Shown here: positions 8,929 to 21,127 of the stretch, in pieces
Position numbering within the stretch: position 1 is the stretch's first letter
Layout of the letters: each line of letters opens with the position of its first letter
Source of the DNA: Candidatus Heimdallarchaeum aukensis
GTDB taxonomy: Archaea; Asgardarchaeota; Heimdallarchaeia; Heimdallarchaeales; Heimdallarchaeaceae
DNA: 64,000 bases
Assembly (NCBI GenBank): GCA_021513695.1
Contig: CP084166.1
Span: 1,920,001 to 1,984,000 of the forward strand
Reading direction: 5' to 3'
Position numbers and translations under genes: made by a program
The notes under the pieces: generated by a model
Told to the model about the DNA's origin: nothing
The model's input: only the letters and a program-made list of their open reading frames with translations
Databases searched by the model: none

Positions 8929-9054
8929 TTTAGGCCAAAAAAAAATTTTGGTAGTACAGAAAAAGCGTGACACTTGGAGTGTGCGTAAAAGTTAATTCAA
9001 GTTTTAAAAAGCGAAAAAGGTAATAACGACCGTACGAAAATCGTCTGAAAAAGA

Positions 9055-10531
<1,477 letters not shown>

Positions 10532-10536
10532 AAGTT

Positions 10537-10558
10537 TGGGGGGCCTCAGGCCCCTCCC
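10537..10558 (+). other. GC-rich hairpin immediately 3' of the 16S gene (ggggggcc-tcag-ggcccctccc)
   Basis: A perfect 7-8 bp G/C stem, the only such structure in the AT-rich flank. It is present in both copies of the direct repeat. Confidence 0.55.
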
Positions 10559-10562
10559 TATT

Positions 10563-10616
10563 ATTCTCTTTATTTACTCTCTGTTTTTCATTGCTTGGAG
10601 TTCTTGTTATCATTGG
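10563..10616 (+). other. pre-16S rRNA processing stem, 3' arm
   Basis: The reverse complement reads ccaatgataacaagaactccaagcaatgaaaaacagag..., matching 8880..8928. Confidence 0.65.
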
Positions 10617-10644
10617 ACTTTTTTATTTGTCTCAACTTTTCTTT

Positions 10645-10980
10645 ATCTCTTCTATTTTTTTCCATCTTTTTCTTTTATTACGTTTTCTCTTTTTTTCTCC
10701 TTTCTCCCTTTTTTCTCTAGGAGGTGATCCTACCTTCTGTTCTCCTACGGCTACTTTCTTGTTACTTTTTTTCTTTTTCCGCGCTTCTACCTTATTTTTG
10801 CAACAACGGGTGGTATGTTCTTTTTCTTTTTCCTTTTCCATTTCCTTTTTTTATCTAAGTATTAGATTTGTGATCTACGTAATTAATTGTATAGTGATTA
10901 GTTCGGTTGATAAAGCTTACAAAAATAGATTTTTCTTCGATTTTTCGATATTTTTTGTTACTTTTCTGATTTAAAGGTAC
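10645..10980 (+). repeat. long polypyrimidine (CT-rich) low-complexity tract
   Basis: The plus strand is almost purine-free over several hundred nt. ORFs called here are composition artefacts. Confidence 0.8.
10719..10820 (-). pseudogene. inverted, degenerate fragment of the 16S 3' terminal region
   Basis: aggaggtgatcc...cctacggctac...cttgttac...ccgcgcttctacc...gcaacaacgggtggtatgttc aligns to the reverse complement of 16S 10392..10531 with an internal deletion and many purine-to-pyrimidine changes. Confidence 0.6.
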
Positions 10981-11324
10981 TAGACTTTGTAATATAAGTC
11001 TTATAAAATCTAGCAAAATACCGAAACAGTAAGCGAGGATTTTAATTTTATTTTAGTTTCAACTACCTAATTCATGGCTCAATGAGTGGTAGGTTCTTCC
11101 TCCCTCCCGGATGGACCTTTCCCGAGAGCAAGATTACAGTACAAAAATTTTGTACAAAAATCGAGTTGATGGAACAATGTCTTCCTTTGGTCAGGTAAAC
11201 TTCTCTCCCTTGTTACTGTGACTGTATGTCTCATCCTAAATTAGCACAAAATATTGTTGTGGTTTTCTCCAATACAGAAATGAATTATTACAACAAGCCG
11301 TTAAATTAGAAAAAAGAATCAGAT

Positions 11325-12152
11325 ATGTTTCATATTAGGGTTACAAGGTTTAATATTTTTAAACAAAGGTTTTTTATACCTAAACAAATATTAATTATTA
11401 GAACATCTTATATTTTAAGCGTGCACACAATGGATTTTGAAGATTCAATTGAAATATGTATGAAAGTAGATAACATTAATTCAGAAATAGATGTTAATAT
11501 ATCAGAAGAAGAAAAAGATAGGATATATTTAGAGGTAATTCAATGGTTGAATGACAATCCAATTCGTTCGTTAAGTTCTGTAAGCGATTTTATGCAACTC
11601 TTGGAAAGTTTATTATGCTTGGAGATTAAAGAAGATGGAAGACTTATATTAAGTACTTCTGCTTACAGTGATCAACAGTTAAGTGAAGGACTTAAGAGAA
11701 ATAAGGATTTCTTTAATAATTTAATTAAGGAATTTCAAAATAATATTGATAAAGAAATAAATAGAGAGTATGAAAACGAAACAGAAGAGGTTCTATTATT
11801 ACGTTTTCTTAATACAGAAGAACAGATTATTGAGGGAATAAATGAAGTATCAAAAGCATTGACAAAATTCTCTTTCAACAGAAAAAGACGTAGATTTACA
11901 AGAATATTAATTGAAGCATTATTTGAATTTTTAGATAGTATTATTCTAATATTCATAAGATGGATTGAAATAAGTGCTAATAGAAACACAAAGAGAGAAA
12001 ATTTGTCTTTAGAATTATTAGAATGGGATATAAACACGTTTAAATCGACCATCTATAATATAAATAGAATTGCACAATTATCTCAAACAAGTATCGAAGA
12101 AGAAGGAAATAAAAATTTAGCAAAGGTCTTTATAGAAATTTTACAACAGTAG
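11325..12152 (+). CDS. hypothetical protein (the true start may be the ATG at 11430)
   Basis: Open frame with protein-like composition. The first 35 codons read like an AT-rich promoter. First gene of the island. Confidence 0.4.
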   Translation: MFHIRVTRFNIFKQRFFIPKQILIIRTSYILSVHTMDFEDSIEICMKVDNINSEIDVNISEEEKDRIYLEVIQWLNDNPIRSLSSVSDFMQLLESLLCLEIKEDGRLILSTSAYSDQQLSEGLKRNKDFFNNLIKEFQNNIDKEINREYENETEEVLLLRFLNTEEQIIEGINEVSKALTKFSFNRKRRRFTRILIEALFEFLDSIILIFIRWIEISANRNTKRENLSLELLEWDINTFKSTIYNINRIAQLSQTSIEEEGNKNLAKVFIEILQQ

Positions 12153-12162
12153 GAGGTTTTTC

Positions 12163-12948
12163 ATGTCTTTAATTTCAATTGGACATGATACATGTATTCT
12201 TTTAGCATACATATATGATGATGGAATTAGAGATGAATTTGAAAATTATCTTGAAATAAGTAATAATATTAACAATAGAAGTTATTCAAAATATTATCAC
12301 TTACTTCTAAAGTCAGTCGTTGATGAGATTAGTGCGGTGATAGGATCTCGTTTAGGTAATATAATTAAAGAAATGTCAAAAAAATTACAAGAAATAATAC
12401 CTGAAAGAACTACATCTTTATCAATGAAACAATTAAGCGAATTCCTTGAATATATGGAAGATCTAGAAACGATTTATCCAAAAGATGCTGGATTAATTAG
12501 ATATATTAAAAGAAATATGTTAGACAAGAAAAAAAATTACTCTTCTTTAATTGATACAGCTTCAAGAAGGAAAAAATTTTCAGAAATGATAAGTCTAAAG
12601 AATAGGTTCGATATTAATTACTTTTCATCACTTTTTGGAACCTACTTTAAATACTATGATCCAACTGATAAGCTAAGAGATACTGAAATTAAGGAAGATT
12701 TTGAAGAGATAATGAAGAAAATCTTTAAAGGTGCAAGAACAAAAAGAAATACTTATGATAAAATTCACATTTACTCATGTTGCGCTTTTATACGGGAAAA
12801 TAGAAATGATAATCTAAAGTTTACGACCTCTGATCAAATACTACTTGAAAACTCTAGATTATTAGAAAAATATTTTGAGATAGTAGATATGCAATCGTTG
12901 GTAAGATTACTTTACACCCACATGGATTCTCTTCCAGAATCTGTTTGA
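12163..12948 (+). CDS. hypothetical protein
   Basis: 261 aa, preceded by a perfect SD, aggaggtttttcATG. I recognise no family. Confidence 0.5.
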   Translation: MSLISIGHDTCILLAYIYDDGIRDEFENYLEISNNINNRSYSKYYHLLLKSVVDEISAVIGSRLGNIIKEMSKKLQEIIPERTTSLSMKQLSEFLEYMEDLETIYPKDAGLIRYIKRNMLDKKKNYSSLIDTASRRKKFSEMISLKNRFDINYFSSLFGTYFKYYDPTDKLRDTEIKEDFEEIMKKIFKGARTKRNTYDKIHIYSCCAFIRENRNDNLKFTTSDQILLENSRLLEKYFEIVDMQSLVRLLYTHMDSLPESV

Positions 12949-13025
12949 CCTAGTTAATATTTTTCATTTTCTTTGATTTTTATACCGTTTACCGTTCTCT
13001 TTAAACCCATGAAGTATGGTTTCTT

Positions 13026-13301
13026 ATGGCAGATAGATGGAAAGATAACCAAGATAACATTTTTGAGCAATTTTTTCTAAAATATTTTGAATTTAGAAAA
13101 AATAGTAATAATAAACAAAATGATGCATTAAATGAAATTTTAGAGTATATTAAACAAAAAGAAAAATCCAGATATTGGGATTTATATTGCTTTCTTCAGT
13201 CAACTCCTGTGAGAAAAGAATCCCCTTATGTTCGCAAGTTTTCAACAAAGCCATTAAATAAAAGATGGCTAATTTATAAATGGAAAAGCTTTTTTTATTA
13301 A
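13026..13301 (+). pseudogene. gene fragment paralogous to an internal segment of the downstream NACHT-LRR gene
   Basis: ADRWKDNQDNIFEQFFLKYFEFRKN...ILEYI compared with IADKWKDSKENNFEKFIIKCLEFRRD...ILDYI. The 17-nt string gaagtatggtttcttat is identical at 13008 and 14986. Confidence 0.55.
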
Positions 13302-13345
13302 TAGCGTAAAAACTAATCTTGTTTTAAAGAAAGGAGTAAAAAACT

Positions 13346-16300
13346 ATGCCTAATAAGAAAAGAATCTTCGTATTTTTTATTATTCTGTTAGTACTTTCTT
13401 TCCTTGTTGGAGCACTACCTGCTTTAGTTTCAGAAGGAATCTTTCATTTAAATAGTACGTTAGTTATCATTCTTGCATTATTAAGCCCAATACTAAGCCC
13501 CTTTATTGAGCTTATTTACAGTAATATTGCAAATATAGTTAAAAAGGCCAACTATAACAGAAAAAGAATCGTTTCAATCTTAGAAGAAAATTATCGCAAT
13601 TTTATTCAACATTTAATTATTCCTTCTGCGAGAGGAAACACAGTTAATGAACTTTTACCTCTCCATTCAATAGAACGAAGAATTATGAGCGTTGAAGATT
13701 TGGAAAAATATGTCGAAAGGGGTGAGAAGAACGTTGATTCTTTTCCTTTTACACAAATTGTAGAAGAATTAAAAGGTTCACCTCCAAGATCACTCTCTTC
13801 TAGCCCCCTAAAATATATTATTACGGGAATCTTGAGAAAAAGAAAAAAAATAAAGAACGAGGGAAAAAGACTTCTCAAATATATTATTACAGGAATTCCC
13901 GGAGTAGGGAAGACTAGTTGTTCTTTTCAACTTGCCCTAAAACAGTTAGAAGCTTTCAATAACAAAGAATCAAATTATCTTCCTCTTTGGTTTGATATAG
14001 GTGAAAGAACTGGAAGAAAACAGCTAGGAAATGGTTTGAAATCATTACGTGATATACTTAAGGATTGTAGTACTCAGGTGTCAAAAGAAGAACAACTTAA
14101 AACCTATCTTGCTTTTCTTGAAGGTAAATCTGTTGATAATGTAGAATTACGTCTTTCTGATGATGATTTTGAAATCTTCTGGATTCTCGATGGATGGAAT
14201 GAAAACCCCATAAATGATATGATTACTTGGTTAAGCAATAGAGATACCATAACTATCTTTTCTAGAATGGGAGGAGAACCTTTAGGCTCATCTTCAATTT
14301 CTTTTGATAAATATACTCTTAGACCTTTTACTGTTCAAGATTCCATCTCTTTTCTAACTCAGTTTAATCATGTCCCTGAAAAATGTGCACGTATTATCGC
14401 TAGTTCACTAGATGAACATTATGGTGAAGAATTTCTTATTCCTTTCTTTCTAAATATTATAGTTTATAACTTATCAATACAAGGGATCAATGATACGGTT
14501 CAAACAATAAATTACTTCAACATCGAGCAGACTACTAAATTTAGTTTTTTAAAAGATTTTTTCTACTCTATACTCGAACGTGATTTTTCAAGTATAAATG
14601 CTCAACGTAAACTTAATGATCGACTAAAAAGACAAATTCTCTCTTGGTTCTCTCAAATTCTCTATTTTATAGTGAAAAAAAACTCTAATGTCCCTTCAAG
14701 GATGATTTTCAGAGAGGAAGATTTGCAAGACGCAATAGATAACGTACGTCCTCCAGAAATTGTGAGAACTGATCCTTTAGAAGTATTGACTGATTTATTA
14801 TTTATAGAAAAAGTACAAGATAACAGAGGGGAACGGACTATTTCTTATAGTTTAGTCCATGAACTATATTTAGACTTTTTTCTAGCTTATGCTATTAGTT
14901 CCTTTTGGGAAAAAAAAGAGAATGAGCCTAAATTTGATAACGATGGTCGAATGTATCTTCAGTGGATGGATAATGAATCTTTCGATGAAGTATGGTTTCT
15001 TATTGCTGATAAATGGAAAGATAGCAAAGAGAATAATTTTGAGAAATTTATTATAAAATGTCTTGAATTTAGAAGAGACAAGAAAGACAATCAAGATCTT
15101 ACACTACAACACATTTTAGACTATATTAGAAATAGAGTACTTTCCTATTCTTTTTTACATCCTAATAAACGAAGTATCTCTTCTCATCATAACATATGTT
15201 TATCTTTAAGACTTTTTCCTGGTGGAATTAAAGAATTAGATTTGAGTGAAACAAAAGTTACAGACATTAGTGCTCTTGTGCACTGCACAAATCTACGATA
15301 CTTAGATTTAAGTGGAACAAAAGTTACAGACATTAGTGCTCTTGTGCACTGCACAAATCTACAATACTTAGATTTAAGTGGAACAGACGTTCAAGACATT
15401 AGTCCTCTTTCGCACTGTCCGAATCTACAAAAAATATATTTAAGTGGAACAGATGTTCAAGACATTCGTCCTCTTTCAAGTTGTCCAAATCTACAAGTGC
15501 TGTATTTACTTGGAACACACGTTCAAGACATTAGTCCTCTTTCAAGTTGTCCAAATCTACAAGTGCTGTATTTACTTGGAACACACGTTCAAGACATTCG
15601 TCCTCTTTCAAGTTGTCCAAATCTACAAGTGCTGTATTTACTTGGAACACACGTTCAAGACATTCGTCCTCTTTCAAGTTGTCCAAATTTACAGAGATTA
15701 CGTTTAAGTGGAACAAAAGTTACAGACATTAGTGTTCTTAAAAACTGTCCGAATCTACAAGAATTAGATTTAAGCGATACAGACGTTCAAGACATTAGTC
15801 CTCTTTCAAGTTGTCTAAATCTACAAGAACTGTACTTACTTGCAACACACGTTCAAGACATTAATCCTCTTTCGCACTGTCCGAAACTACAAGTATTAGA
15901 TTTAAGGGGTACACACGTTCAAGACATTAATCCTCTTTCGCACTGTCCGAAACTACAAGTATTAGATTTACATGGAACAAAAGTTACAGACATTAGTGTT
16001 CTTAAAAACTGTCCGAATCTACAAGAATTAGATTTAAGTGGAACAAAAGTTACAGACATTAATCCTCTTTCAAGTTGTCTAAATCTACAAGCACTGTATT
16101 TAAGTGATACAGACGTTACAGACCTTAATCCTCTTTCAAGTTGTCTAAATCTACAAGCACTGTATTTAAGTGATACAGACGTTACAGACCTTAATCCTCT
16201 TTCAAGTTGTCTAAATCTACAAGCACTGTATTTAAGTGATACAGACGTTACAGACCTTAATCCTCTTTCGCACTGTCCGAAACTACAAGTATTAGATTTA

Positions 16301-16861
16301 CATGGAACAAAAGTTACAGACCTTAATCCTCTTTCAAGTTGTCCGAAACTACAAGTATTAGATTTACATGGAACAGACGTTCAAGACATTAGTCCTCTTG
16401 TAAGCTTACCCCATCTACAATACTTAGTTTTACGTGGAACAGACGTTCAAGACCTTAATCCTCTTTCGCACTGTCCGAAACTACAAGTATTAGATTTACA
16501 TGGAACAGACGTTCAAGACATTAGTCCTCTTGTAAGCTTGCCCCATCTACAATACTTAGATTTAAGTGGAACAGACGTTCACGATATTAGTGCTCTTTCA
16601 AGTTGTCCAAATTTACAGAGATTACGTTTAAGTGAAACAAAAGTTACAGACATTAGTGTTCTTGAAAACTGTCCAAATCTACAAGAATTAGTTTTACGTG
16701 GAATAGAAGGTGAATTTAATATTTCTCCTATCATTCGGCATAGACAATTATTAAATCTTGATTTTGATTCTTCACTACAGTTGCTTTGTCCTCGAGACCT
16801 TCAGGATAGTATTGAAGCTCCTGCTCTTCTCAAGATAAAAGATCAAATACAATTTTTCTAA
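13346..16861 (+). CDS. membrane-anchored NACHT/STAND NTPase with C-terminal leucine-rich repeats (NLR-like protein)
   Basis: Two N-terminal hydrophobic helices. Walker A GIPGVGKTS at about 13892..13918. NACHT-type Walker B FWILDGWNE. Helical middle region. About 22 tandem 22-aa repeats of the form LxxCxNLQxLxLxGTxVxDIxPL. Confidence 0.8.
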   Translation: MPNKKRIFVFFIILLVLSFLVGALPALVSEGIFHLNSTLVIILALLSPILSPFIELIYSNIANIVKKANYNRKRIVSILEENYRNFIQHLIIPSARGNTVNELLPLHSIERRIMSVEDLEKYVERGEKNVDSFPFTQIVEELKGSPPRSLSSSPLKYIITGILRKRKKIKNEGKRLLKYIITGIPGVGKTSCSFQLALKQLEAFNNKESNYLPLWFDIGERTGRKQLGNGLKSLRDILKDCSTQVSKEEQLKTYLAFLEGKSVDNVELRLSDDDFEIFWILDGWNENPINDMITWLSNRDTITIFSRMGGEPLGSSSISFDKYTLRPFTVQDSISFLTQFNHVPEKCARIIASSLDEHYGEEFLIPFFLNIIVYNLSIQGINDTVQTINYFNIEQTTKFSFLKDFFYSILERDFSSINAQRKLNDRLKRQILSWFSQILYFIVKKNSNVPSRMIFREEDLQDAIDNVRPPEIVRTDPLEVLTDLLFIEKVQDNRGERTISYSLVHELYLDFFLAYAISSFWEKKENEPKFDNDGRMYLQWMDNESFDEVWFLIADKWKDSKENNFEKFIIKCLEFRRDKKDNQDLTLQHILDYIRNRVLSYSFLHPNKRSISSHHNICLSLRLFPGGIKELDLSETKVTDISALVHCTNLRYLDLSGTKVTDISALVHCTNLQYLDLSGTDVQDISPLSHCPNLQKIYLSGTDVQDIRPLSSCPNLQVLYLLGTHVQDISPLSSCPNLQVLYLLGTHVQDIRPLSSCPNLQVLYLLGTHVQDIRPLSSCPNLQRLRLSGTKVTDISVLKNCPNLQELDLSDTDVQDISPLSSCLNLQELYLLATHVQDINPLSHCPKLQVLDLRGTHVQDINPLSHCPKLQVLDLHGTKVTDISVLKNCPNLQELDLSGTKVTDINPLSSCLNLQALYLSDTDVTDLNPLSSCLNLQALYLSDTDVTDLNPLSSCLNLQALYLSDTDVTDLNPLSHCPKLQVLDLHGTKVTDLNPLSSCPKLQVLDLHGTDVQDISPLVSLPHLQYLVLRGTDVQDLNPLSHCPKLQVLDLHGTDVQDISPLVSLPHLQYLDLSGTDVHDISALSSCPNLQRLRLSETKVTDISVLENCPNLQELVLRGIEGEFNISPIIRHRQLLNLDFDSSLQLLCPRDLQDSIEAPALLKIKDQIQFF
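15221..16710 (+). repeat. 66-bp tandem repeat array (about 22 units, several adjacent units nearly identical) encoding the LRRs
   Basis: For example, the units at 15469..15534, 15535..15600 and 15601..15666 are near-identical at the nucleotide level. Alternative-frame ORFs in the track repeat the same peptide. Confidence 0.9.
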
Positions 16862-17159
16862 ATTGTTGTATATTAGTTTTTTCTTTTTAGAACACCTATC
16901 TTTCTGAAAAAAATCTATTGTTCAGTTATAGCCATAAATCTTTTTTTATGATTGTAAATTTGAATCTATCTTACACAAAAGATCTACCTGTTAACATCCC
17001 TTATTATTTTAGGTAAGATTCTATCCCTCTTTCATGATACAGTTCTAGATATACTGAATTATCTACAAACTGTCAAAGAGCAATACAACATAACAGTGGT
17101 TACTCTTGCTTTTTAGAAATCTCCCTTCATTAGGAGAAAGGAAAAAAACACGATATTGT

Positions 17160-17289
17160 CCTGCGGATGGATCACCTCCTAAGTTTGGGGGGCCTCAGGC
17201 CCCTCCCTATTATTCTTTTTACTCTCTGTTTTTCATTGCTTGGAGTTCTTGTTATCATTGGACTTTTTTATTTGTCTCAATTTTTCTTT
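17160..17289 (+). repeat. direct repeat copy 2 (last 20 nt of 16S + GC hairpin + processing-stem 3' arm) without an upstream 16S gene
   Basis: Identity with 10511..10644 begins exactly at cctgcggatggatcacctcct. Confidence 0.9.
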
Positions 17290-17496
17290 CTTTCATGTTC
17301 TAACACTTTTAGTCGTGTTTCCACCAAAATCCCTTTTCAACTTTCTAAATTTTTTATTCTCGCTCCCATTCTTCTCCATTTTTCTCCATTTTTCTTTTTT
17401 TTTCTAACTAACCTTTTTCTCCCTCTTCCTTTCTTTCTCTCTCCTTCCCCTTTCTTTTTTGGATAAATTTATGTACTTTTTTTCTCTCTTTTCTGT

Positions 17497-18117
17497 ATGT
17501 TTCTTTCTCCTGACCTTTCTTACCTTGTTGGTGCCTTACGTGACGGTTCTGTTTACTATTATTCTCGGAATAGGTCTTACTATACTCTTTTTTATCAAAA
17601 GTATCGTTCTTGGCTTGTTCACTCTATTGGTAAGCGTATAACTAGATTATTTGGTTTAAACTATTCTATTGACGAATATAAGCGCGGTCATTATCGTCTT
17701 CGCATTTCAAGCAAGCGCTTGTATTCTCTCTGGATTGACCAATTTGGTTTTCCTCGTGAGGGTGAGACTCAGTTACACTGGGATGTTCCTCGTCTTATTT
17801 TAGATAGCGATCTTCTTACTCAGTCTTACTTTCTCCGAGCTTTTTTTGACACTGAGGGTGATGTTTCTCCTTCATCTAGTTCTACTTATTATCTTGGTTT
17901 AAGTCAAAAGAATACTACTGTTTTATATCAACTTAAATCTCTTCTTTCTTCTTTCGATATTAAAACTTCCTCCATTCATTTAGCTGATAAAAAGTCTAAT
18001 ACTTACAGGTTTAGTATTGTTGGCAAGGAAGAAATTTTCAAATTTAGGGACAAGATAGGTTCTGAGCACCCTGTTAAGAAAGAAAAAATTGACCAAATTC
18101 TTCTTTCCAGCGACTAA
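17497..18117 (+). CDS. free-standing LAGLIDADG homing endonuclease (two-motif)
   Basis: Motif 1 LSYLVGALRDGSV and motif 2 YFLRAFFDTEGDVS. 206 aa. Strongly T-rich codon usage (tct, ctt, cgt, ttt) unlike neighbouring genes. Confidence 0.75.
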   Translation: MFLSPDLSYLVGALRDGSVYYYSRNRSYYTLFYQKYRSWLVHSIGKRITRLFGLNYSIDEYKRGHYRLRISSKRLYSLWIDQFGFPREGETQLHWDVPRLILDSDLLTQSYFLRAFFDTEGDVSPSSSSTYYLGLSQKNTTVLYQLKSLLSSFDIKTSSIHLADKKSNTYRFSIVGKEEIFKFRDKIGSEHPVKKEKIDQILLSSD

Positions 18118-18619
18118 ATTATTATTTTTTAATTATCAAGAGCATTAAGGGTTTATTCAGCTTATTTTTGTCTCTTTAGATATGGATTAGCTTTTTCTTT
18201 CTTAGATGGAAGTTGTTTGTTTATAGAATTGCCTTTCCTCCTTCCTTCTCTTTCTTATCCTTTCTTATTTTCTCTTTATTCCTCTTTATTAAGTTTCAAA
18301 TACATATTCATTGTTAGTTTATTCTTTCTAGCCTAATTTATTCATTTTTAGATCCATACCTTTCCTTTTTAGTTAACTTTCTTTTTAGCTATCATATTAC
18401 AGCTATCACTATCAATAATGCTATCGACTATCACTATCAAAGGGAGTGATAACATTAAGAAAATAAAGATAAAGTGAATGAAAAGAAAGGAAAAAATAAG
18501 TAAAAGCAGAAAAAGTAAAAAACGGACATAAGGTAAAAAAAATAGAAGAGTAAGACTTAAGTCAAATACAAAAAAGTTTAAGATAGAATTGTAAAAAAGA
18601 GAATCAAAAGGAAAAATAA

Positions 18620-18715
18620 GACCCTGTAGCTCAGCAGGATAGAGCGCTGGCCTTCTAATCTCAGTTGAGAGAAGCTAGTCAGCGGTCGACGGTTCGAATC
18701 CGCCCAGGGTCGCCA
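18620..18715 (+). tRNA. tRNA-Arg (anticodon TCT) with a 19-nt intron after the anticodon loop (about 18659..18677), CCA encoded
   Basis: Acceptor stem gaccctg/cagggtc; D stem gctc/gagc; anticodon stem ctggc/gtcag with loop cttctaa; T loop ttcgaat. One A-C mismatch in the T stem lowers confidence. Confidence 0.55.
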
Positions 18716-21127
18716 TTACATTTTTAGTTTTCCTATTATTGTTATTATTTCCCCCTTTTTGTCTTTGAATACTTCACTCTCTGCTATTTCTCTTAATTTT
18801 TTCAAGTATTTCTTTACCAATTCGTTTTCTTCTGGTAAGTTTACTTTTTTCTTTTGTACGTTGGGCTTTTTTTCTTTTTCTCCCACCAGTTTAACTTTGT
18901 ATTCTCTTTTTTGTTTTCCTTCTTTCACTCTTATCTTGTTTTGATTAGTCACTTCATATTCTTTTTTTGCATTCTCTTTTCTGTCATTCTCTTTTCTGGC
19001 ATTCGAGAACCCTTTTTCTTTTATCAATTCCACGAATTTTTCTCCTACTTTATTCCACACTTGTTGGTATTCCCACATAATCAGTATTATCAGAGCTATA
19101 TCTTCTTCTTTTCCTTTCAGCATATTTACTCCGTTTATAGACATTCCTTGTTTTATTGCTGTTGATAGACCAGCTCTTTTTTTCAGAATAGACAGTTTTC
19201 CCTCACTTAAATTGTACTTTTCTTTTAGATATTTTATCCAAGCTTCTCTTTTCTCTATCATTCTTGAGTTACCAAAGTCTACGAAAAGTTTTCCTTTTTT
19301 ATCTATCTTAAAATACATTGGTTCGTGCAACAGAACAGGGCTAAAGTTCTTTATATCAACATTTTTCATCAATTCGTTTAATAAATTGAATTTGCAAGTT
19401 ATCAGTGGGCTTTTTCTGTTCTCGCTTACTCTTAAAAGATCTCCCCTTTCGTTTTCTAGTATAACAAACGTGTCTTTTGATATATTTCTTTTTTCGGTTA
19501 TCTTATGTCCTATCCAATTGCCATCTATAGTTCCTACTTTAAATTTGAAAAATTCTGTAACTTTTTTTGCTATTGAAGAATTATTGGCTAATATATTTTC
19601 TATTTCTTCTAAAGAAAGACAGGTAAAATCCACATTTTCTATTTTCTTTATTATTTCTTTGAAGATTTGCTCTGTAAAACTTTTAATATTGTTAATTGTT
19701 TCAATATTTTTACTTTCAGAAATTTTTGTTATTAAAGAGAAACGTTCATTTGTTGGCACTAAATTAAGAACAATTTCGTCGTAAGTTCTAATTGCGTATC
19801 TAGAAGCCCATTTTTCTAAATAAGAGTAATAGTAAAACAGCTCATCTTTGCACCCAATAAATTCTAAACGGTGTTTTGTTTCGCAGCTGCTTAAAACTTC
19901 AAAATCCTTGAATAGCCCCTCTTTTGTAATAATATTATAAAGGACGTCCTGAATCTTGATGATTGTCTCTATAAAACTATATTTATTTTCTAGGTTATAA
20001 ACAAATTTTCTCTTTTTCAGTCTCGTGAGAAGAAGATTATCTATTTTTTTGAAAATATTTTTATTTTCATTTTTTTCTTCAAATGATGGAATCTCAATAA
20101 AATCAAGGTTAATTCTTGGTTGAAGATCAGTTGCTTCAATTCTCACTATAGAGTTATTCTCACTCACTAGATCTATATAATTGACTATATCGTTTGTAAC
20201 TACTAAATATCCTTGAAGGTTTTTTGTTGCTTCAAATGTCCAACCATTTTCAAGTAAAGAAATAAGTTGATGTTGTTTTATTGCTGCATTTAAGATAAGA
20301 TTTATTGTATCAAGATCTAAACCACTTTTTATTAGCGCTTCTTTTAGATCTCCGTTTTTTTCTTTTCTTAGGAAATCTAAGCCAATATCGTGTAGAGAAC
20401 TTCTTCTTTTTCTTATTAACATTCTTACTAGTTCTTTTTTCTCTTTCACTGCCTCATCTAGACTACCTATTTCAGAGTTTATTTTTTCAAAGATTTTAGA
20501 TTTACGTCTGAAATATACGTTATTTGAACCATTAAACTTCAAGTTTATCGTTTTAATTATATATTTCCCTGAAGCATCTCTTGCCAGCAGTAACTGATCA
20601 AATCCATTATTTTTCCTCTTTCCAAATTTACCAAAACATAGAGTCTCTTCTGCTGTTCCTATCAACTCAACAACATATTTTGTTGTTAATGTGCTTAAAA
20701 TATAAATTAACTGAAATCTCTCAACATAAGCTCGTGGATCATTAACAAAAATTACTTCTTCTTTTATTCCTGCTAAAAATAAGATGATTCTAATAAAAGC
20801 TTCTATTTCAATCTCATTAATTGTTCTAAAAAAGTGCTTGTACTTCTTTTCAAATTCCTTTTTTCCTACTTTGCTATAAATTGAACTTTCTATTTCCTTT
20901 ATTATTTTATTTATAAAAATCATAAAGAATAATTTAAGAGATTCTAACTCCAGTCTAGTAATTGAATCCACTCTTAATTTACTTATTTTCTTTAAGTTAT
21001 TTCTTTCTAAATCCAGTTCTTGTTGTTCTTTGAGGAGATGAAATAATTCTGTAATAGTAGAGCAACGCAAAAGATTCCAGATATTTAAATTTGCATTTTT
21101 ATAAACAATTTTTTTCATTATATGCAA
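18716..21127 (-). CDS. large hypothetical protein with a lysine-rich C-terminal tail
   Basis: 803 aa with no recognisable catalytic motif. The C-terminal ~100 aa are K/E-rich. The stop codon abuts the CCA end of tRNA-Arg. Confidence 0.5.
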   Translation of the reverse strand: MHIMKKIVYKNANLNIWNLLRCSTITELFHLLKEQQELDLERNNLKKISKLRVDSITRLELESLKLFFMIFINKIIKEIESSIYSKVGKKEFEKKYKHFFRTINEIEIEAFIRIILFLAGIKEEVIFVNDPRAYVERFQLIYILSTLTTKYVVELIGTAEETLCFGKFGKRKNNGFDQLLLARDASGKYIIKTINLKFNGSNNVYFRRKSKIFEKINSEIGSLDEAVKEKKELVRMLIRKRRSSLHDIGLDFLRKEKNGDLKEALIKSGLDLDTINLILNAAIKQHQLISLLENGWTFEATKNLQGYLVVTNDIVNYIDLVSENNSIVRIEATDLQPRINLDFIEIPSFEEKNENKNIFKKIDNLLLTRLKKRKFVYNLENKYSFIETIIKIQDVLYNIITKEGLFKDFEVLSSCETKHRLEFIGCKDELFYYYSYLEKWASRYAIRTYDEIVLNLVPTNERFSLITKISESKNIETINNIKSFTEQIFKEIIKKIENVDFTCLSLEEIENILANNSSIAKKVTEFFKFKVGTIDGNWIGHKITEKRNISKDTFVILENERGDLLRVSENRKSPLITCKFNLLNELMKNVDIKNFSPVLLHEPMYFKIDKKGKLFVDFGNSRMIEKREAWIKYLKEKYNLSEGKLSILKKRAGLSTAIKQGMSINGVNMLKGKEEDIALIILIMWEYQQVWNKVGEKFVELIKEKGFSNARKENDRKENAKKEYEVTNQNKIRVKEGKQKREYKVKLVGEKEKKPNVQKKKVNLPEENELVKKYLKKLREIAESEVFKDKKGEIITIIGKLKM

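What the first reader, a model, noticed from the sequence alone, without database searches (positions are those of the whole stretch)
13008..13301. Orphan fragment paralogous to an internal segment of the NLR-like gene lies just upstream of it
The 91-aa ORF at 13026..13301 is about 45% identical to residues ~545-605 of the NLR-like protein, the segment just before the LRRs (ADRWKDNQDNIFEQFF...EFRKN...ILEYI compared with IADKWKDSKENNFEKFI...EFRRD...ILDYI). The two loci share a 17-nt identical string, gaagtatggtttcttat, at 13008 and 14986. This points to a past recombination or cassette-exchange event, or to a decayed second paralog, within the island.
Basis: seen in the sequence. Interest (0 to 1): 0.5.

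Follow-up and report, generated by a model that had tools for sequence, protein, structure and literature searches.

The report
Relic of a second NLR-like gene
A real but ordinary leftover: about 190 bases copied long ago from the middle of the neighbouring NLR-like immune-type gene sit just upstream of it, inside a small, already published mobile element (HeimM2) of the Asgard archaeon Ca. Heimdallarchaeum aukensis, and they most likely no longer do anything.

Summary
Window 13009-13161 matches 14985-15137 without gaps at 76% (117/153; next best offset in the window 73/153). It starts with an exact 19-mer. The protein match is 42-47% identical, E 2e-11 to 9e-14 with composition correction. 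Homology starts 17 nt upstream of the ORF's ATG, directly after an in-frame TAA, and fades by about 13199.

The copied block is the family-conserved three-helix end of the NTPase module (HD2-like), just before the LRRs of a TM-NACHT-like-LRR protein.

I read it as a doubly truncated, probably non-functional relic of an older duplicate:
- dN/dS is about 1.
- It shows more unique changes than the resident gene (11 vs 3), including a lost conserved Cys.
- Its codon usage is weak and it has no Shine-Dalgarno motif.
- NCBI appears not to annotate it.

Nothing supports cassette exchange.

ORF2 identifies the genome as Ca. Heimdallarchaeum aukensis, and the island as the published element HeimM2. Strains 99.6% identical lack exactly the 6.65 kb between two ~134-nt repeats of the 16S 3' end. 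The upstream ORF1-ORF2 pair occurs elsewhere without the NLR gene, so the relic's sharp 5' edge lies about 60 nt from a module junction.

Interest is low to moderate.

The parts
13009..13161 (+). Ungapped DNA homology block of the relic. It begins with an exact 19-mer (13009-13027).
   Evidence: 76% identical (117/153) to 14985-15137. The 19-mer ATGAAGTATGGTTTCTTAT occurs only at 13009 and 14985. Identity falls to background immediately 5' of 13009.
13011..13199 (+). Protein-level extent of the relic: EVWFLMADRWKD...ILEYIKQKEKSRYWDLYCFLQ. It corresponds to NLR residues 548-605, with a 5-codon in-frame indel.
   Evidence: tblastn gives 44% over 63 aa, E = 5e-11. The relic also matches the same block of the distant homolog P0002 (27% over 55 aa, E = 7e-7).
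13002..13004 (+). In-frame TAA that closes the relic's reading frame two codons upstream of the first homologous codon. It lies inside a TTTAAA hexamer (13000-13005) at -26 from the ATG.
   Evidence: Read directly from the sequence.
13026..13301 (+). The 91-aa ORF. Residues 1-58 are relic; residues 59-91 are a non-homologous tail.
   Evidence: - ORF listing.
- No Shine-Dalgarno motif upstream.
- Codon-usage score 0.094, below the 5th percentile (0.168) of 91-codon windows from real genes of this window.
- AF2 on the single sequence gives pLDDT 58.5.
- No Pfam, PHROG or PADLOC hit.
- Called by JGI and Logan gene finders, but apparently not in the NCBI record.
13200..13345 (+). Tail of the ORF plus the 5' region of the NLR-like gene. 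It holds a candidate BRE/TATA (GAAAAGC-TTTTTTTATTAATA, about 13283-13303, which contains the ORF's stop codon 13299-13301) and a Shine-Dalgarno GGAG at 13333-13336.
   Evidence: No similarity to any part of the NLR gene or to the rest of the window. The promoter assignment is inference from the sequence only.
14985..15137 (+). The resident counterpart inside the NLR-like gene (residues 547-597). It forms the last three helices of the NTPase module, just before the first LRR.
   Evidence: In the AF2 model of residues 160-625 these are model helices 385-397, 405-414 and 424-445, after the winged-helix hairpin. The block is conserved in P0002 and P0004.
13346..16861 (+). NLR-like gene (1171 aa): two N-terminal TM helices, a NACHT-like P-loop NTPase, a helical region, and about 24 LRRs of 22 aa (66-nt DNA repeats).
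   Evidence: - LRR Pfam hits, E = 1e-102.
- 66-nt repeat array at 15165-16842.
- Motifs GIPGVGKTS (aa 183), ILDGWNE (aa 280), FSRMGG (aa 305).
- NCBI UJG39917.1, 'leucine-rich repeat domain-containing protein', Ca. Heimdallarchaeum aukensis.
11325..12948 (+). ORF1 (11325-12152) and ORF2 (12163-12948), a two-gene module of unknown function immediately upstream of the relic.
   Evidence: - No similarity to the NLR gene.
- ORF2 has a strong SD and lies 10 nt after ORF1.
- The pair is conserved at 51-54% aa identity on contigs L013-L016 from other samples. There it has the same spacing but a different downstream neighbour.
10511..10644 (+). Left direct repeat (att-like): the last 21 nt of the 16S rRNA gene plus its 3' trailer.
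   Evidence: The 16S gene is at 9054-10531.
17160..17289 (+). Right direct repeat. Strains that lack the insert go from window 10644 straight to 17160.
   Evidence: The insert, counted from repeat to repeat, is 6,649 bp.

Best explanation
The feature is a doubly truncated, most likely non-functional relic of a second copy of the NLR-like gene.

Shown:
- About 190 nt (13009-13199) descend from the same ancestral sequence as residues 547-605 of the resident gene. That is the conserved three-helix end of its NACHT-like module.
- Everything 5' of it (about 1.64 kb of TM and NTPase coding sequence) and everything 3' of it (the LRR array) is missing.
- The copy has diverged by 24% at the DNA level.

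Inferred history:
1. An older duplication, or a meeting of two element variants that carried diverged paralogs, gave two copies.
2. Both copies evolved for a while as coding sequence. This fits the absence of frameshifts and the single in-frame 5-codon indel.
3. Recombination during assembly of the mobile element HeimM2 removed the 5' part. The ORF1-ORF2 module, which occurs independently elsewhere, ends 60 nt upstream of the breakpoint.
4. Loss of the recombination-prone 66-nt LRR repeats removed the 3' part. This left the relic about 145 nt upstream of the resident gene's start.
5. Since then the relic has drifted.

Inferred present state: the 91-aa ORF is open partly by descent and partly by chance. 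It is probably transcribed passively with ORF1-ORF2 and the NLR gene (same strand, gaps of 10, 77 and 44 nt, and the NLR gene starts with a Shine-Dalgarno motif). Its 3' tail overlaps the likely promoter and leader of the NLR gene.

Unresolved: whether the lost copy was a full-length tandem paralog or only a partial duplication.
For: - Homology is real and sharply bounded: 117/153 ungapped identities against a background of 46 +/- 6; E = 2e-11 to 9e-14; identity drops to background at 13008 and after about 13170-13199.
- The frame is closed by a TAA two codons before the homology starts.
- No other piece of the NLR gene is found anywhere in the 64-kb window. ORF1 and ORF2 are unrelated to it.
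- Evolution looks neutral: dN/dS is 1.02-1.23, and differences fall 13/8/12 over the three codon positions.
- With P0002 and P0004 as outgroups, the relic has 11 unique changes against 3 in the resident gene. These include ADKW to ADRW and the family-invariant Cys to Tyr.
- The relic has lower GC than its counterpart (21.6% vs 26.1%), with a 16:9 excess of AT states at differing sites.
- Its codon-usage score is below the 5th percentile of real genes. It has no SD, whereas ORF2 and the NLR gene both have one.
- It is apparently not annotated by NCBI: the locus tags and protein accessions around it are consecutive, and the exact protein is found only in JGI and Logan gene calls.
- It is an older lineage, not a fresh copy. 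It is 24% diverged, while strains differ by about 0.4-0.6%. It also keeps 'SRYWDLYCFL', which resembles P0002 'GRQYLLHHYLFL' and P0004 'NYWKDTYEHYY'; the resident gene lacks this stretch.
- A module junction is close by. ORF1-ORF2 is conserved elsewhere with a different downstream neighbour and no relic.
- The whole 6.65-kb unit is a polymorphic insertion, published as the mobile element HeimM2.
Against: - The frame is open for 98 codons in a genome with 30% GC. By simulation, the 53 homologous codons stay free of stops after 30-40 random substitutions only 9-14% of the time. A random 34-44-codon tail stays open about 3-6% of the time.
- There is no frameshift in a block that carries 36 substitutions.
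- An ATG sits almost exactly at the start of the homology, with a TTTAAA hexamer at -26. That is the spacing seen at several apparently leaderless genes of this window.
- The ORF is intact in all four assemblies, but these are at least 99.4% identical, so this carries almost no weight.
- dN/dS rests on only about 5 synonymous differences. The relative-rate test is borderline (two-sided binomial p = 0.057).
Confidence: 0.73

Rival explanations
1. The 91-aa ORF is a translated small protein. It would be an isolated copy of the HD2-like hinge that sits between the NTPase and the LRRs, and it would modulate the resident NLR-like protein. It could, for example, compete for the intramolecular NTPase-LRR contact that keeps such proteins off, or act as a decoy.
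For: - The frame is open longer than neutral decay predicts.
- The ATG lies at the start of the homology, and a TATA-like hexamer lies at -26, as at leaderless genes of this window.
- JGI and Logan gene finders call it.
- The retained residues (W, AD.WK, EFR, ILEYI) are the most conserved ones of the family block.
Against: - dN/dS is about 1, and the family-invariant Cys is lost.
- The relic lineage evolves faster than the resident gene.
- Codon usage is poor.
- There is no SD.
- It is three helices cut out of a larger helical domain, with a non-homologous tail. The AF2 model has low confidence: pLDDT 58.5, pTM 0.36.
- No homolog of the small ORF exists among 5.8 billion proteins apart from itself.
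- No extra copies lie beside the family members P0002, P0003 and P0004.
Confidence: 0.12
2. The fragment is a silent donor or partner for recombination with the expressed gene. This could be gene conversion of the HD2 block (cassette exchange), or direct-repeat recombination that deletes 13009-14985. The deletion would create an in-frame, NTPase-less LRR protein starting at the ATG at 13026.
For: - The two copies are direct repeats 1,976 nt apart and are in the same reading register.
- They share an exact 19-mer.
- The only strain polymorphism in the fragment (13074 T>A, F17I in L001) changes the residue to the one found in the resident gene.
Against: - There is a single copy only.
- It matches the conserved block, not the hypervariable LRRs where the strain differences actually cluster.
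- 76% identity with one 19-nt seed is a poor substrate for homologous recombination.
- None of the four assemblies shows a recombinant.
- One SNP cannot distinguish conversion from mutation.
Confidence: 0.05
3. The similarity is chance resemblance between AT-rich, Lys/Asn/Glu-rich sequences, or a mis-assembly.
For: The genome has about 30% GC, and both segments are rich in K, N, D and E.
Against: - Composition-adjusted E is 2e-11.
- The ungapped DNA match has z of about 11 against all offsets of the same window.
- The fragment independently matches the same block of the distant homolog P0002 (E = 7e-7).
- The same structure appears in independent assemblies from three datasets.
Confidence: 0.01

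Closest known systems
Truncated paralogs and pseudogene fragments in NLR gene clusters of plants, animals and fungi (my knowledge; fungal NLR repertoires are discussed in PMC12258605)
   Same: A short, diverged, truncated copy of part of an NLR-type gene lies next to an intact family member. It was produced by duplication and unequal or illegitimate recombination in a fast-evolving, repeat-rich receptor gene.
   Different: Here there is a single relic of only about 63 codons, in an archaeon and inside a 6.65-kb mobile element. No cluster of paralogs is visible.
Prokaryotic NLR-related defence proteins: bacterial NACHT proteins (bNACHT; PMC12169576) and Avs antiviral STANDs (PMC11564622); 'NLR' systems counted in Asgard archaea (PMC11291487)
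   Same: The parent gene has the tripartite layout of N-terminal effector-like module (here two TM helices; a TIR domain in homolog P0002), a central NACHT-like P-loop NTPase, and a C-terminal repeat sensor. It sits on a mobile element. P0002 lies next to an MmeI-type restriction-modification gene.
   Different: - Pfam NACHT does not hit, and PADLOC gives only a weak PDC-S41 match (E = 0.0034).
- The family has only 9 representatives among 1.84 billion proteins; the members whose source is named are archaeal, mostly Asgard.
- It uses true LRRs as sensor, which to my knowledge is unusual for prokaryotic STANDs.
- No defence activity has been tested.
HeimM2, mobile element of Ca. Heimdallarchaeum aukensis (Wu et al. 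2022, Nat Microbiol, PMC8813620)
   Same: It is the same locus. The paper describes an 8-kbp element between the only 16S rRNA gene and tRNA-Arg(TCT). [quoted passage not shown]
   Different: - In the text I could search, the paper does not mention the NTPase module of the LRR protein, the 91-aa relic, or the ~134-nt repeats of the 16S 3' end.
- Empty-site strains show that the polymorphic unit is 6.65 kb and excludes the LAGLIDADG gene.
Silent-cassette variation systems (Neisseria pilS/pilE, Borrelia vls) (my knowledge)
   Same: A promoter-proximal partial copy of an expressed gene lies in the same orientation.
   Different: Those systems have many cassettes that cover the variable region and are highly similar at their borders. 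Here there is one copy of a conserved region, at 76% identity.

Membership tests
Gene relic (truncated pseudogene fragment) | Statistically significant homology to part of a functional gene | tested here: met
   E = 2e-11 to 9e-14; 117/153 nt identical; z about 11.
Gene relic (truncated pseudogene fragment) | Lacks the parts that the parent protein needs to function (truncated at one or both ends) | tested here: met
   It covers only residues 547-605 of 1171. There is no P-loop, no TM segment and no LRR. An in-frame TAA lies at 13002. No other NLR-derived sequence exists in the window.
Gene relic (truncated pseudogene fragment) | Relaxed selective constraint relative to the functional copy | tested here: inconclusive
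   dN/dS is 1.0-1.2, but on only about 5 synonymous differences. Unique changes are 11 vs 3, p = 0.057. A conserved Cys is lost. Against relaxation: there is no stop and no frameshift.
Gene relic (truncated pseudogene fragment) | Not translated into a functional product | not testable with these tools
   Only indirect evidence is available: no SD, weak codon usage, and apparently no NCBI annotation.
NACHT-type STAND NTPase / NLR-like protein (the parent gene, 13346-16861) | P-loop NTPase motifs: Walker A GxxGxGK[ST], Walker B hhhhDGxxE, and an SRP-type sensor motif (NACHT signatures as I know them) | tested here: met
   GIPGVGKTS (aa 183), ILDGWNE (aa 280), FSRMGG (aa 305; family consensus FSRPGS).
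NACHT-type STAND NTPase / NLR-like protein (the parent gene, 13346-16861) | Match to the curated NACHT sequence profile | tested here: not met
   With Pfam at E up to 10, only nSTAND3 appears (E = 0.0045, 17 bits, below its cut-off, covering the Walker A region only). NACHT is not listed.
NACHT-type STAND NTPase / NLR-like protein (the parent gene, 13346-16861) | NBD, helical and winged-helix fold closest to NACHT NLRs | tested here: met
   [not shown]
NACHT-type STAND NTPase / NLR-like protein (the parent gene, 13346-16861) | C-terminal repeat sensor domain and a variable N-terminal effector | tested here: met
   LRR_4 E = 1.4e-102. The N-terminus has two hydrophobic helices, by direct reading. 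Homologs carry a TIR domain (P0002) or a C-terminal Roc/Ras domain (P0003).
NACHT-type STAND NTPase / NLR-like protein (the parent gene, 13346-16861) | Ligand-triggered oligomerisation and an immune or defence function | not testable with these tools
   Context only: the gene is on a CRISPR-targeted mobile element, and P0002 lies beside an MmeI-type restriction-modification gene.
Silent-cassette gene-conversion system | Several silent partial copies that cover the variable region of the expressed gene | tested here: not met
   There is one copy in 64 kb. It matches the conserved HD2-like block, whereas strain variation lies in the LRR array.
Silent-cassette gene-conversion system | Mosaic variants among strains that can be traced to the silent copy | tested here: inconclusive
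   Four nearly identical assemblies are available. There is one SNP in the fragment (F17I, towards the resident residue) and none in the resident block.
HeimM2 mobile element (PMC8813620) | Lies between the single 16S rRNA gene and tRNA-Arg(TCT) of Ca. Heimdallarchaeum aukensis and carries the LRR gene | tested here: met
   16S at 9054-10531 and a tRNA with a TCT-containing anticodon at 18620-18715. ORF2 is K9W45_08665 of Ca. H. aukensis.

The most novel reading that the evidence does not exclude
The relic has been exapted. It would be expressed from its own leaderless promoter (TTTAAA at -26) as a 91-aa 'hinge mimic'. This protein would bind the LRR or NTPase face of the resident TM-NACHT-LRR protein and set its activation threshold. 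That would make it a cis-encoded micro-regulator of an archaeal NLR, carried with it on a mobile element. A variant of this reading: the two direct repeats let the element switch, by a 1,976-bp in-frame deletion, between a full NLR and an NTPase-less LRR protein.
Probability: 0.07. Interest if true: 0.6.

Novelty: new member of a known kind. Interest (0 to 1): 0.25.

Why it matters
On its own the fragment matters little. It is a molecular fossil showing that the NLR-like cargo of an Asgard mobile element was once duplicated and then rearranged, as NLR-type receptor genes are in eukaryotes.

Its value lies in the context it led to:
- The published 'internalin-like LRR peptide' of HeimM2 is a TM-NACHT-like-LRR protein. 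Its family is very rare (9 representatives among 1.84 billion proteins), and the members whose source is named are archaeal, mostly Asgard.
- The element is a 6.65-kb insertion polymorphic within one population. It is bracketed by repeats of the 16S rRNA 3' end.
- The relic lies about 60 nt from the seam between two independently occurring gene modules.

This is relevant to how immune-type STAND genes move and diversify in the archaeal relatives of eukaryotes, but it does not open a new question by itself.

Tried and rejected
- ORF1 + ORF2 + fragment (275 + 261 + 91 aa, about 620 aa) as a broken-up second NLR N-terminal region. Rejected: BLASTP and hhalign find nothing.
  - ORF2 residues 169-220 align weakly to the same HD2 block (BLASTP E = 5.1; hhalign E = 0.041, probability 1.3%). 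This is not significant.
- The ORF's tail (13170-13345) or the 60 nt upstream as diverged or frameshifted NLR sequence, or as the 3' end of the NLR gene. No matches above noise.
- An intact paralog closer to the fragment:
  - Profile search of 5.8 billion proteins: only the ORF itself.
  - HMMER search of 1.84 billion representatives with the NLR N-terminal 620 aa: 9 family members, none closer.
  - Genome contigs: only the P0003 locus.
  - Metagenome contigs, two scans: nothing.
  - Viral contigs: nothing.
  - The rest of the Ca. H. aukensis chromosome could not be searched directly.
- Extra fragments beside the homologs P0002, P0003 and P0004: none within the available flanks.
- A structured RNA or leader in 12949-13345: fold z = -0.62; no Rfam hit at E up to 1 in 10400-18800. 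The GC-richer patch at 11060-11245 has z = -0.5 and -0.7 on the two strands.
- A viral origin for ORF1, ORF2 or the 803-aa ORF: no PHROG hits, and no IMG/VR relatives of ORF2.
- AF2 of the 91-aa ORF alone: low confidence and uninformative.
- The sigma-70 promoter and terminator scan is not applicable to an archaeon and is at background level.
Full report

Yes. The 91-aa ORF at 13026..13301 (+) exists. The repeat finder lists an ungapped direct repeat, 13009-13161 vs 14985-15137, at 76% identity. I recounted it as 117/153 identical. Sliding the same 153-mer over every offset on both strands of the window gives a mean of 46.3 identities (sd 6.3). The next best offset reaches 73, so z is about 11.

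At the protein level:
- BLASTP with compositional adjustment gives 42% identity and 71% positives over 48 aa, E = 2e-11, against residues 553-600 of the 1171-aa protein encoded at 13346..16861.
- tblastn of that protein's first 625 aa against the whole window finds only itself and 13011-13199 (44% over 63 aa, E = 5e-11).
- The reciprocal search gives 47% over 53 aa, E = 9e-14.

Two small corrections apply:
- The 17-mer is at 13011 and 14987. The exact shared run is a 19-mer, ATGAAGTATGGTTTCTTAT, at 13009 and 14985.
- The homology begins before the ORF's ATG. In frame the DNA reads TAA(13002)-T-H-E-V-W-F-L-M-A-D-R-W-K-D, against ...F-D-E-V-W-F-L-I-A-D-K-W-K-D in the large protein.

The same arrangement occurs in three other assemblies: L001 from JGI 3300033149 (99.4% identical), L006 from SRR15988954 (100%) and L007 from SRR15988958. 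It is not an assembly accident.

**2. Anatomy of the fragment**

- In 20-nt windows, identity is at background (3-6 of 20) up to 13010. It jumps to 19/20 at 13011, stays at 13-16/20 until about 13150, and is back at background from 13171.
- With one 5-codon gap, the protein match can be carried to FLQ at 13199.
- Neither the 60 nt upstream nor the remaining 146 nt downstream (the ORF's tail and the spacer to 13346) resembles any part of the large gene or of the window.
- The two upstream ORFs (11325-12152 and 12163-12948) are unrelated to the large protein by BLASTP and by profile comparison.
- One weak ORF2 alignment to the same block (hhalign E = 0.041, probability 1.3%) is not significant.

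The relic is therefore about 190 nt, truncated on both sides, with a sharp 5' edge.

**3. What was copied**

The parent protein has:
- two N-terminal hydrophobic helices;
- a P-loop NTPase with GIPGVGKTS (aa 183), ILDGWNE (aa 280) and FSRMGG (aa 305);
- a helical region;
- about 24 LRRs of 22 aa, encoded by 66-nt DNA repeats.

Pfam's NACHT model does not hit. The only match is a sub-threshold nSTAND3 hit on the Walker A region.

An HMMER search of 1.84 billion representative proteins with the first 620 aa finds only 9 relatives. They include:
- P0002, with TIR, NTPase and LRR domains, from a Hermodarchaeota MAG, next to an MmeI-type restriction-modification gene;
- P0004, with TM, NTPase and LRR domains, from the same JGI sample as L001;
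- P0003, with the NTPase and a C-terminal Roc/Ras domain, from an unclassified archaeal MAG.

The duplicated block corresponds to model helices 385-397, 405-414 and 424-445. These are the last three helices after the winged-helix hairpin, an HD2-like position directly before the first LRR. It is one of the best conserved blocks of the family..YLxWMxNxxFDEVWxLxADKW...F(I/L)KxC(F/L)xxR...L..LD(Y/F)(I/L). The fragment on its own also matches this block of P0002 (27% over 55 aa, E = 7e-7).

**4. Is it decaying or maintained?**

For decay:
- dN/dS between the two copies is 1.02 (48 codons) to 1.23 (53 codons). Differences are spread 13/8/12 over the codon positions.
- With P0002 and P0004 as outgroups, the fragment has 11 unique changes and the resident gene 3 (two-sided binomial p = 0.057). 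These include K to R in ADKW and the loss of the Cys shared by all three intact proteins.
- The fragment has lower GC than its counterpart (21.6% vs 26.1%), with a 16:9 AT excess at differing sites.
- Its codon-usage score (0.094) is below the 5th percentile of 91-codon windows from real genes here (0.168).
- It has no Shine-Dalgarno motif, whereas ORF2 (TAGGAGGT) and the NLR gene (AAGGAGT) both have one.
- The NCBI record appears not to annotate it. The protein accessions of the NLR gene and the LAGLIDADG gene are consecutive. The locus tags 08665 (ORF2) and 08675 (LAGLIDADG) leave room only for the NLR gene. The exact 91-aa protein is known only from JGI and Logan gene calls.

Against decay:
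- The frame is open for 98 codons although stop codons are frequent at 30% GC.
- In simulations, 53 codons survive 30-40 random substitutions without a stop only 9-14% of the time. A random 34-44-codon tail stays open about 3-6% of the time.
- There is no frameshift, and the only indel is in frame.
- A TTTAAA hexamer lies at -26 from the ATG, a spacing seen at several apparently leaderless genes in this window.

My reading is that much of the 24% divergence accumulated while the second copy was still a coding gene. The truncation came later, and the present ORF is partly inherited and partly luck.

The ORF's stop codon lies inside a T-rich TATA-like stretch (about 13290-13303). This stretch could be the promoter of the SD-led NLR gene, which would make the 'tail' regulatory DNA rather than coding sequence (inference only).

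No structured RNA is predicted (z = -0.62; no Rfam hit). AF2 of the ORF alone is uninformative (pLDDT 58.5).

**5. Not a recent copy**

Strains of this population differ by 0.4-0.6%, whereas the two copies differ by 24%. The fragment keeps 'SRYWDLYCFL', which resembles P0002 'GRQYLLHHYLFL' and P0004 'NYWKDTYEHYY'. The resident gene has a 5-codon shorter version. So the relic comes from an older duplicate, or from a diverged paralog brought in by recombination. It was not produced by a fresh slip of the resident gene.

**6. Where this is**

ORF2 is identical to 'hypothetical protein K9W45_08665' of Ca. Heimdallarchaeum aukensis, on a 3,081,793-bp contig. The large protein is UJG39917.1, annotated 'leucine-rich repeat domain-containing protein'.

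Wu et al. 2022 (PMC8813620) describe this island as HeimM2. [quoted passage not shown] In the window, the 16S gene is at 9054-10531 and the tRNA at 18620-18715. The surrounding genes are chromosomal housekeeping genes: topoisomerase, PolD small subunit, AglB/STT3 and RPA. NLR-type systems have been counted in Asgard genomes (PMC11291487).

**7. The element's real borders and modular make-up**

- A repeat of about 134 nt, made of the last 21 nt of 16S plus its trailer, occurs at 10511-10644 and at 17160-17289.
- Five contigs from sister samples (L008-L012) are 99.5-99.8% identical to the flanks. They go from window 10644 directly to 17160 with a single repeat copy, followed by the LAGLIDADG gene. 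One of these contigs comes from the same sample as the island-bearing L001.
- The polymorphic insert is therefore exactly repeat-to-repeat (6,649 bp). It excludes the LAGLIDADG gene at 17497-18117.
- In the three-way alignment, the right repeat equals the empty site. The left repeat carries a 4-nt insertion and a C/T change, as expected if that part came in with the element.
- No integrase-like gene is recognisable in the insert.
- The ORF1-ORF2 pair recurs at 51-54% aa identity, with the same 10-nt spacing, on short contigs from other samples. There it is followed by about 120 nt of spacer and an unrelated ORF, not by a relic or an NLR gene.

The relic's sharp 5' edge, 60 nt after ORF2's stop, thus lies close to the seam between two modules that occur independently.

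**8. Most likely history and mechanism**

Shown:
- The homology and its limits.
- The truncation at both ends.
- The asymmetry of divergence.
- The polymorphic mobile context.
- The independent occurrence of the upstream module.

Inferred:
1. A second, diverged copy of the NLR-like gene once lay upstream of the present one, or was brought alongside it by recombination between element variants.
2. Joining with the ORF1-ORF2 module removed its 5' 1.6 kb.
3. Loss of its LRR array removed its 3' part. The array is easily deleted because it consists of 66-nt tandem repeats.
4. The remaining 190 nt now drift, probably transcribed passively within the ORF1-ORF2-NLR transcription unit.

I cannot tell a full-length tandem paralog from a partial duplication.

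The rivals are a translated 'hinge-mimic' micro-protein, a recombination or conversion partner, and chance or artefact. I score them at 0.12, 0.05 and 0.01, for the reasons given in their entries.

**9. Novelty and verdict**

A truncated paralog fragment next to an NLR-type gene is a familiar kind of object. The island itself is published. What appears to be new is modest:
- the relic itself;
- the recognition that HeimM2's 'internalin-like' protein is a TM-NACHT-like-LRR member of a very rare family whose named members are archaeal, mostly Asgard;
- the 6.65-kb repeat-bounded insert with empty-site alleles.

The finding is real, correctly described and sensibly interpreted apart from the cassette-exchange option. 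Its intrinsic interest is low to moderate.

Noticed in passing
window 10511-10644 and 17160-17289; loci L008-L012: A repeat of about 134 nt (the last 21 nt of 16S rRNA plus its trailer with the processing-stem arm) brackets a 6,649-bp insert. Five contigs 99.5-99.8% identical to the flanks have the empty site (16S, one repeat copy, then the LAGLIDADG gene). One of them comes from the same sample as an island-bearing contig. The polymorphic unit is therefore smaller than the published 8-kb HeimM2 and excludes the LAGLIDADG gene. The left repeat carries element-specific variants (a 4-nt insertion and a C/T change), and no integrase is recognisable.
   Followed up: yes
[not shown]
   Followed up: partly
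window 10718-10769 (- strand sense): A degenerate inverted copy (52 nt, 75% complementary, ending in an exact GGATCACCTCCTA) of the 16S 3' end lies about 75 nt inside the element's left border. It could pair with the true 16S 3' end in a read-through transcript, or it could be a scar of an earlier inverted integration.
   Followed up: no
window about 19482-19494, within the 803-aa ORF 18716-21127 (-); L008 12000-13846: The empty-site strains carry an insertion of about 1.85 kb that encodes a TnpB (Cas12f1-like_TNB) protein. It splits the 803-aa ORF into products of 217 and 551 aa. In the window this ORF is intact.
   Followed up: partly
window 15518-15642, 16058-16114 and 16229, compared with L001: Differences between the window and the 99.4%-identical contig L001 cluster in two short stretches of the LRR array. 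The pattern looks like conversion between repeats or repeat mis-assembly. A 1-nt deletion at 16229 truncates the protein to 962 aa in L001.
   Followed up: partly
window 13074: The only strain difference inside the fragment (T>A, F17I in L001) changes the residue to the Ile found at the homologous position of the resident gene. It could be a micro-conversion or a coincidence.
   Followed up: no
window 11325-12948; loci L013-L016: The ORF1-ORF2 pair has no Pfam, PHROG or PADLOC match. It is conserved as a pair (51-54% aa identity, same 10-nt spacing) in metagenomes from other projects (JGI 3300031255 and 3300031257, SRR9710561, ENA ERZ23486235), with a different downstream gene.
   Followed up: partly
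window 12667-12822 (ORF2 residues 169-220): This stretch has a weak resemblance to the same HD2-like block that the fragment copies (BLASTP E = 5.1; hhalign E = 0.041, probability 1.3%). I judge it not significant.
   Followed up: yes
window 18620-18715: A tRNA of 93-96 nt is reported by ARAGORN with a 4-nt 'tcta' anticodon. It is presumably the intron-containing tRNA-Arg(TCT) named in the HeimM2 paper.
   Followed up: no
window 11060-11245: A GC-richer patch lies inside the element, upstream of ORF1. It has no Rfam hit, and its fold z-scores are -0.5 and -0.7 on the two strands, so there is no evidence for an RNA gene.
   Followed up: yes
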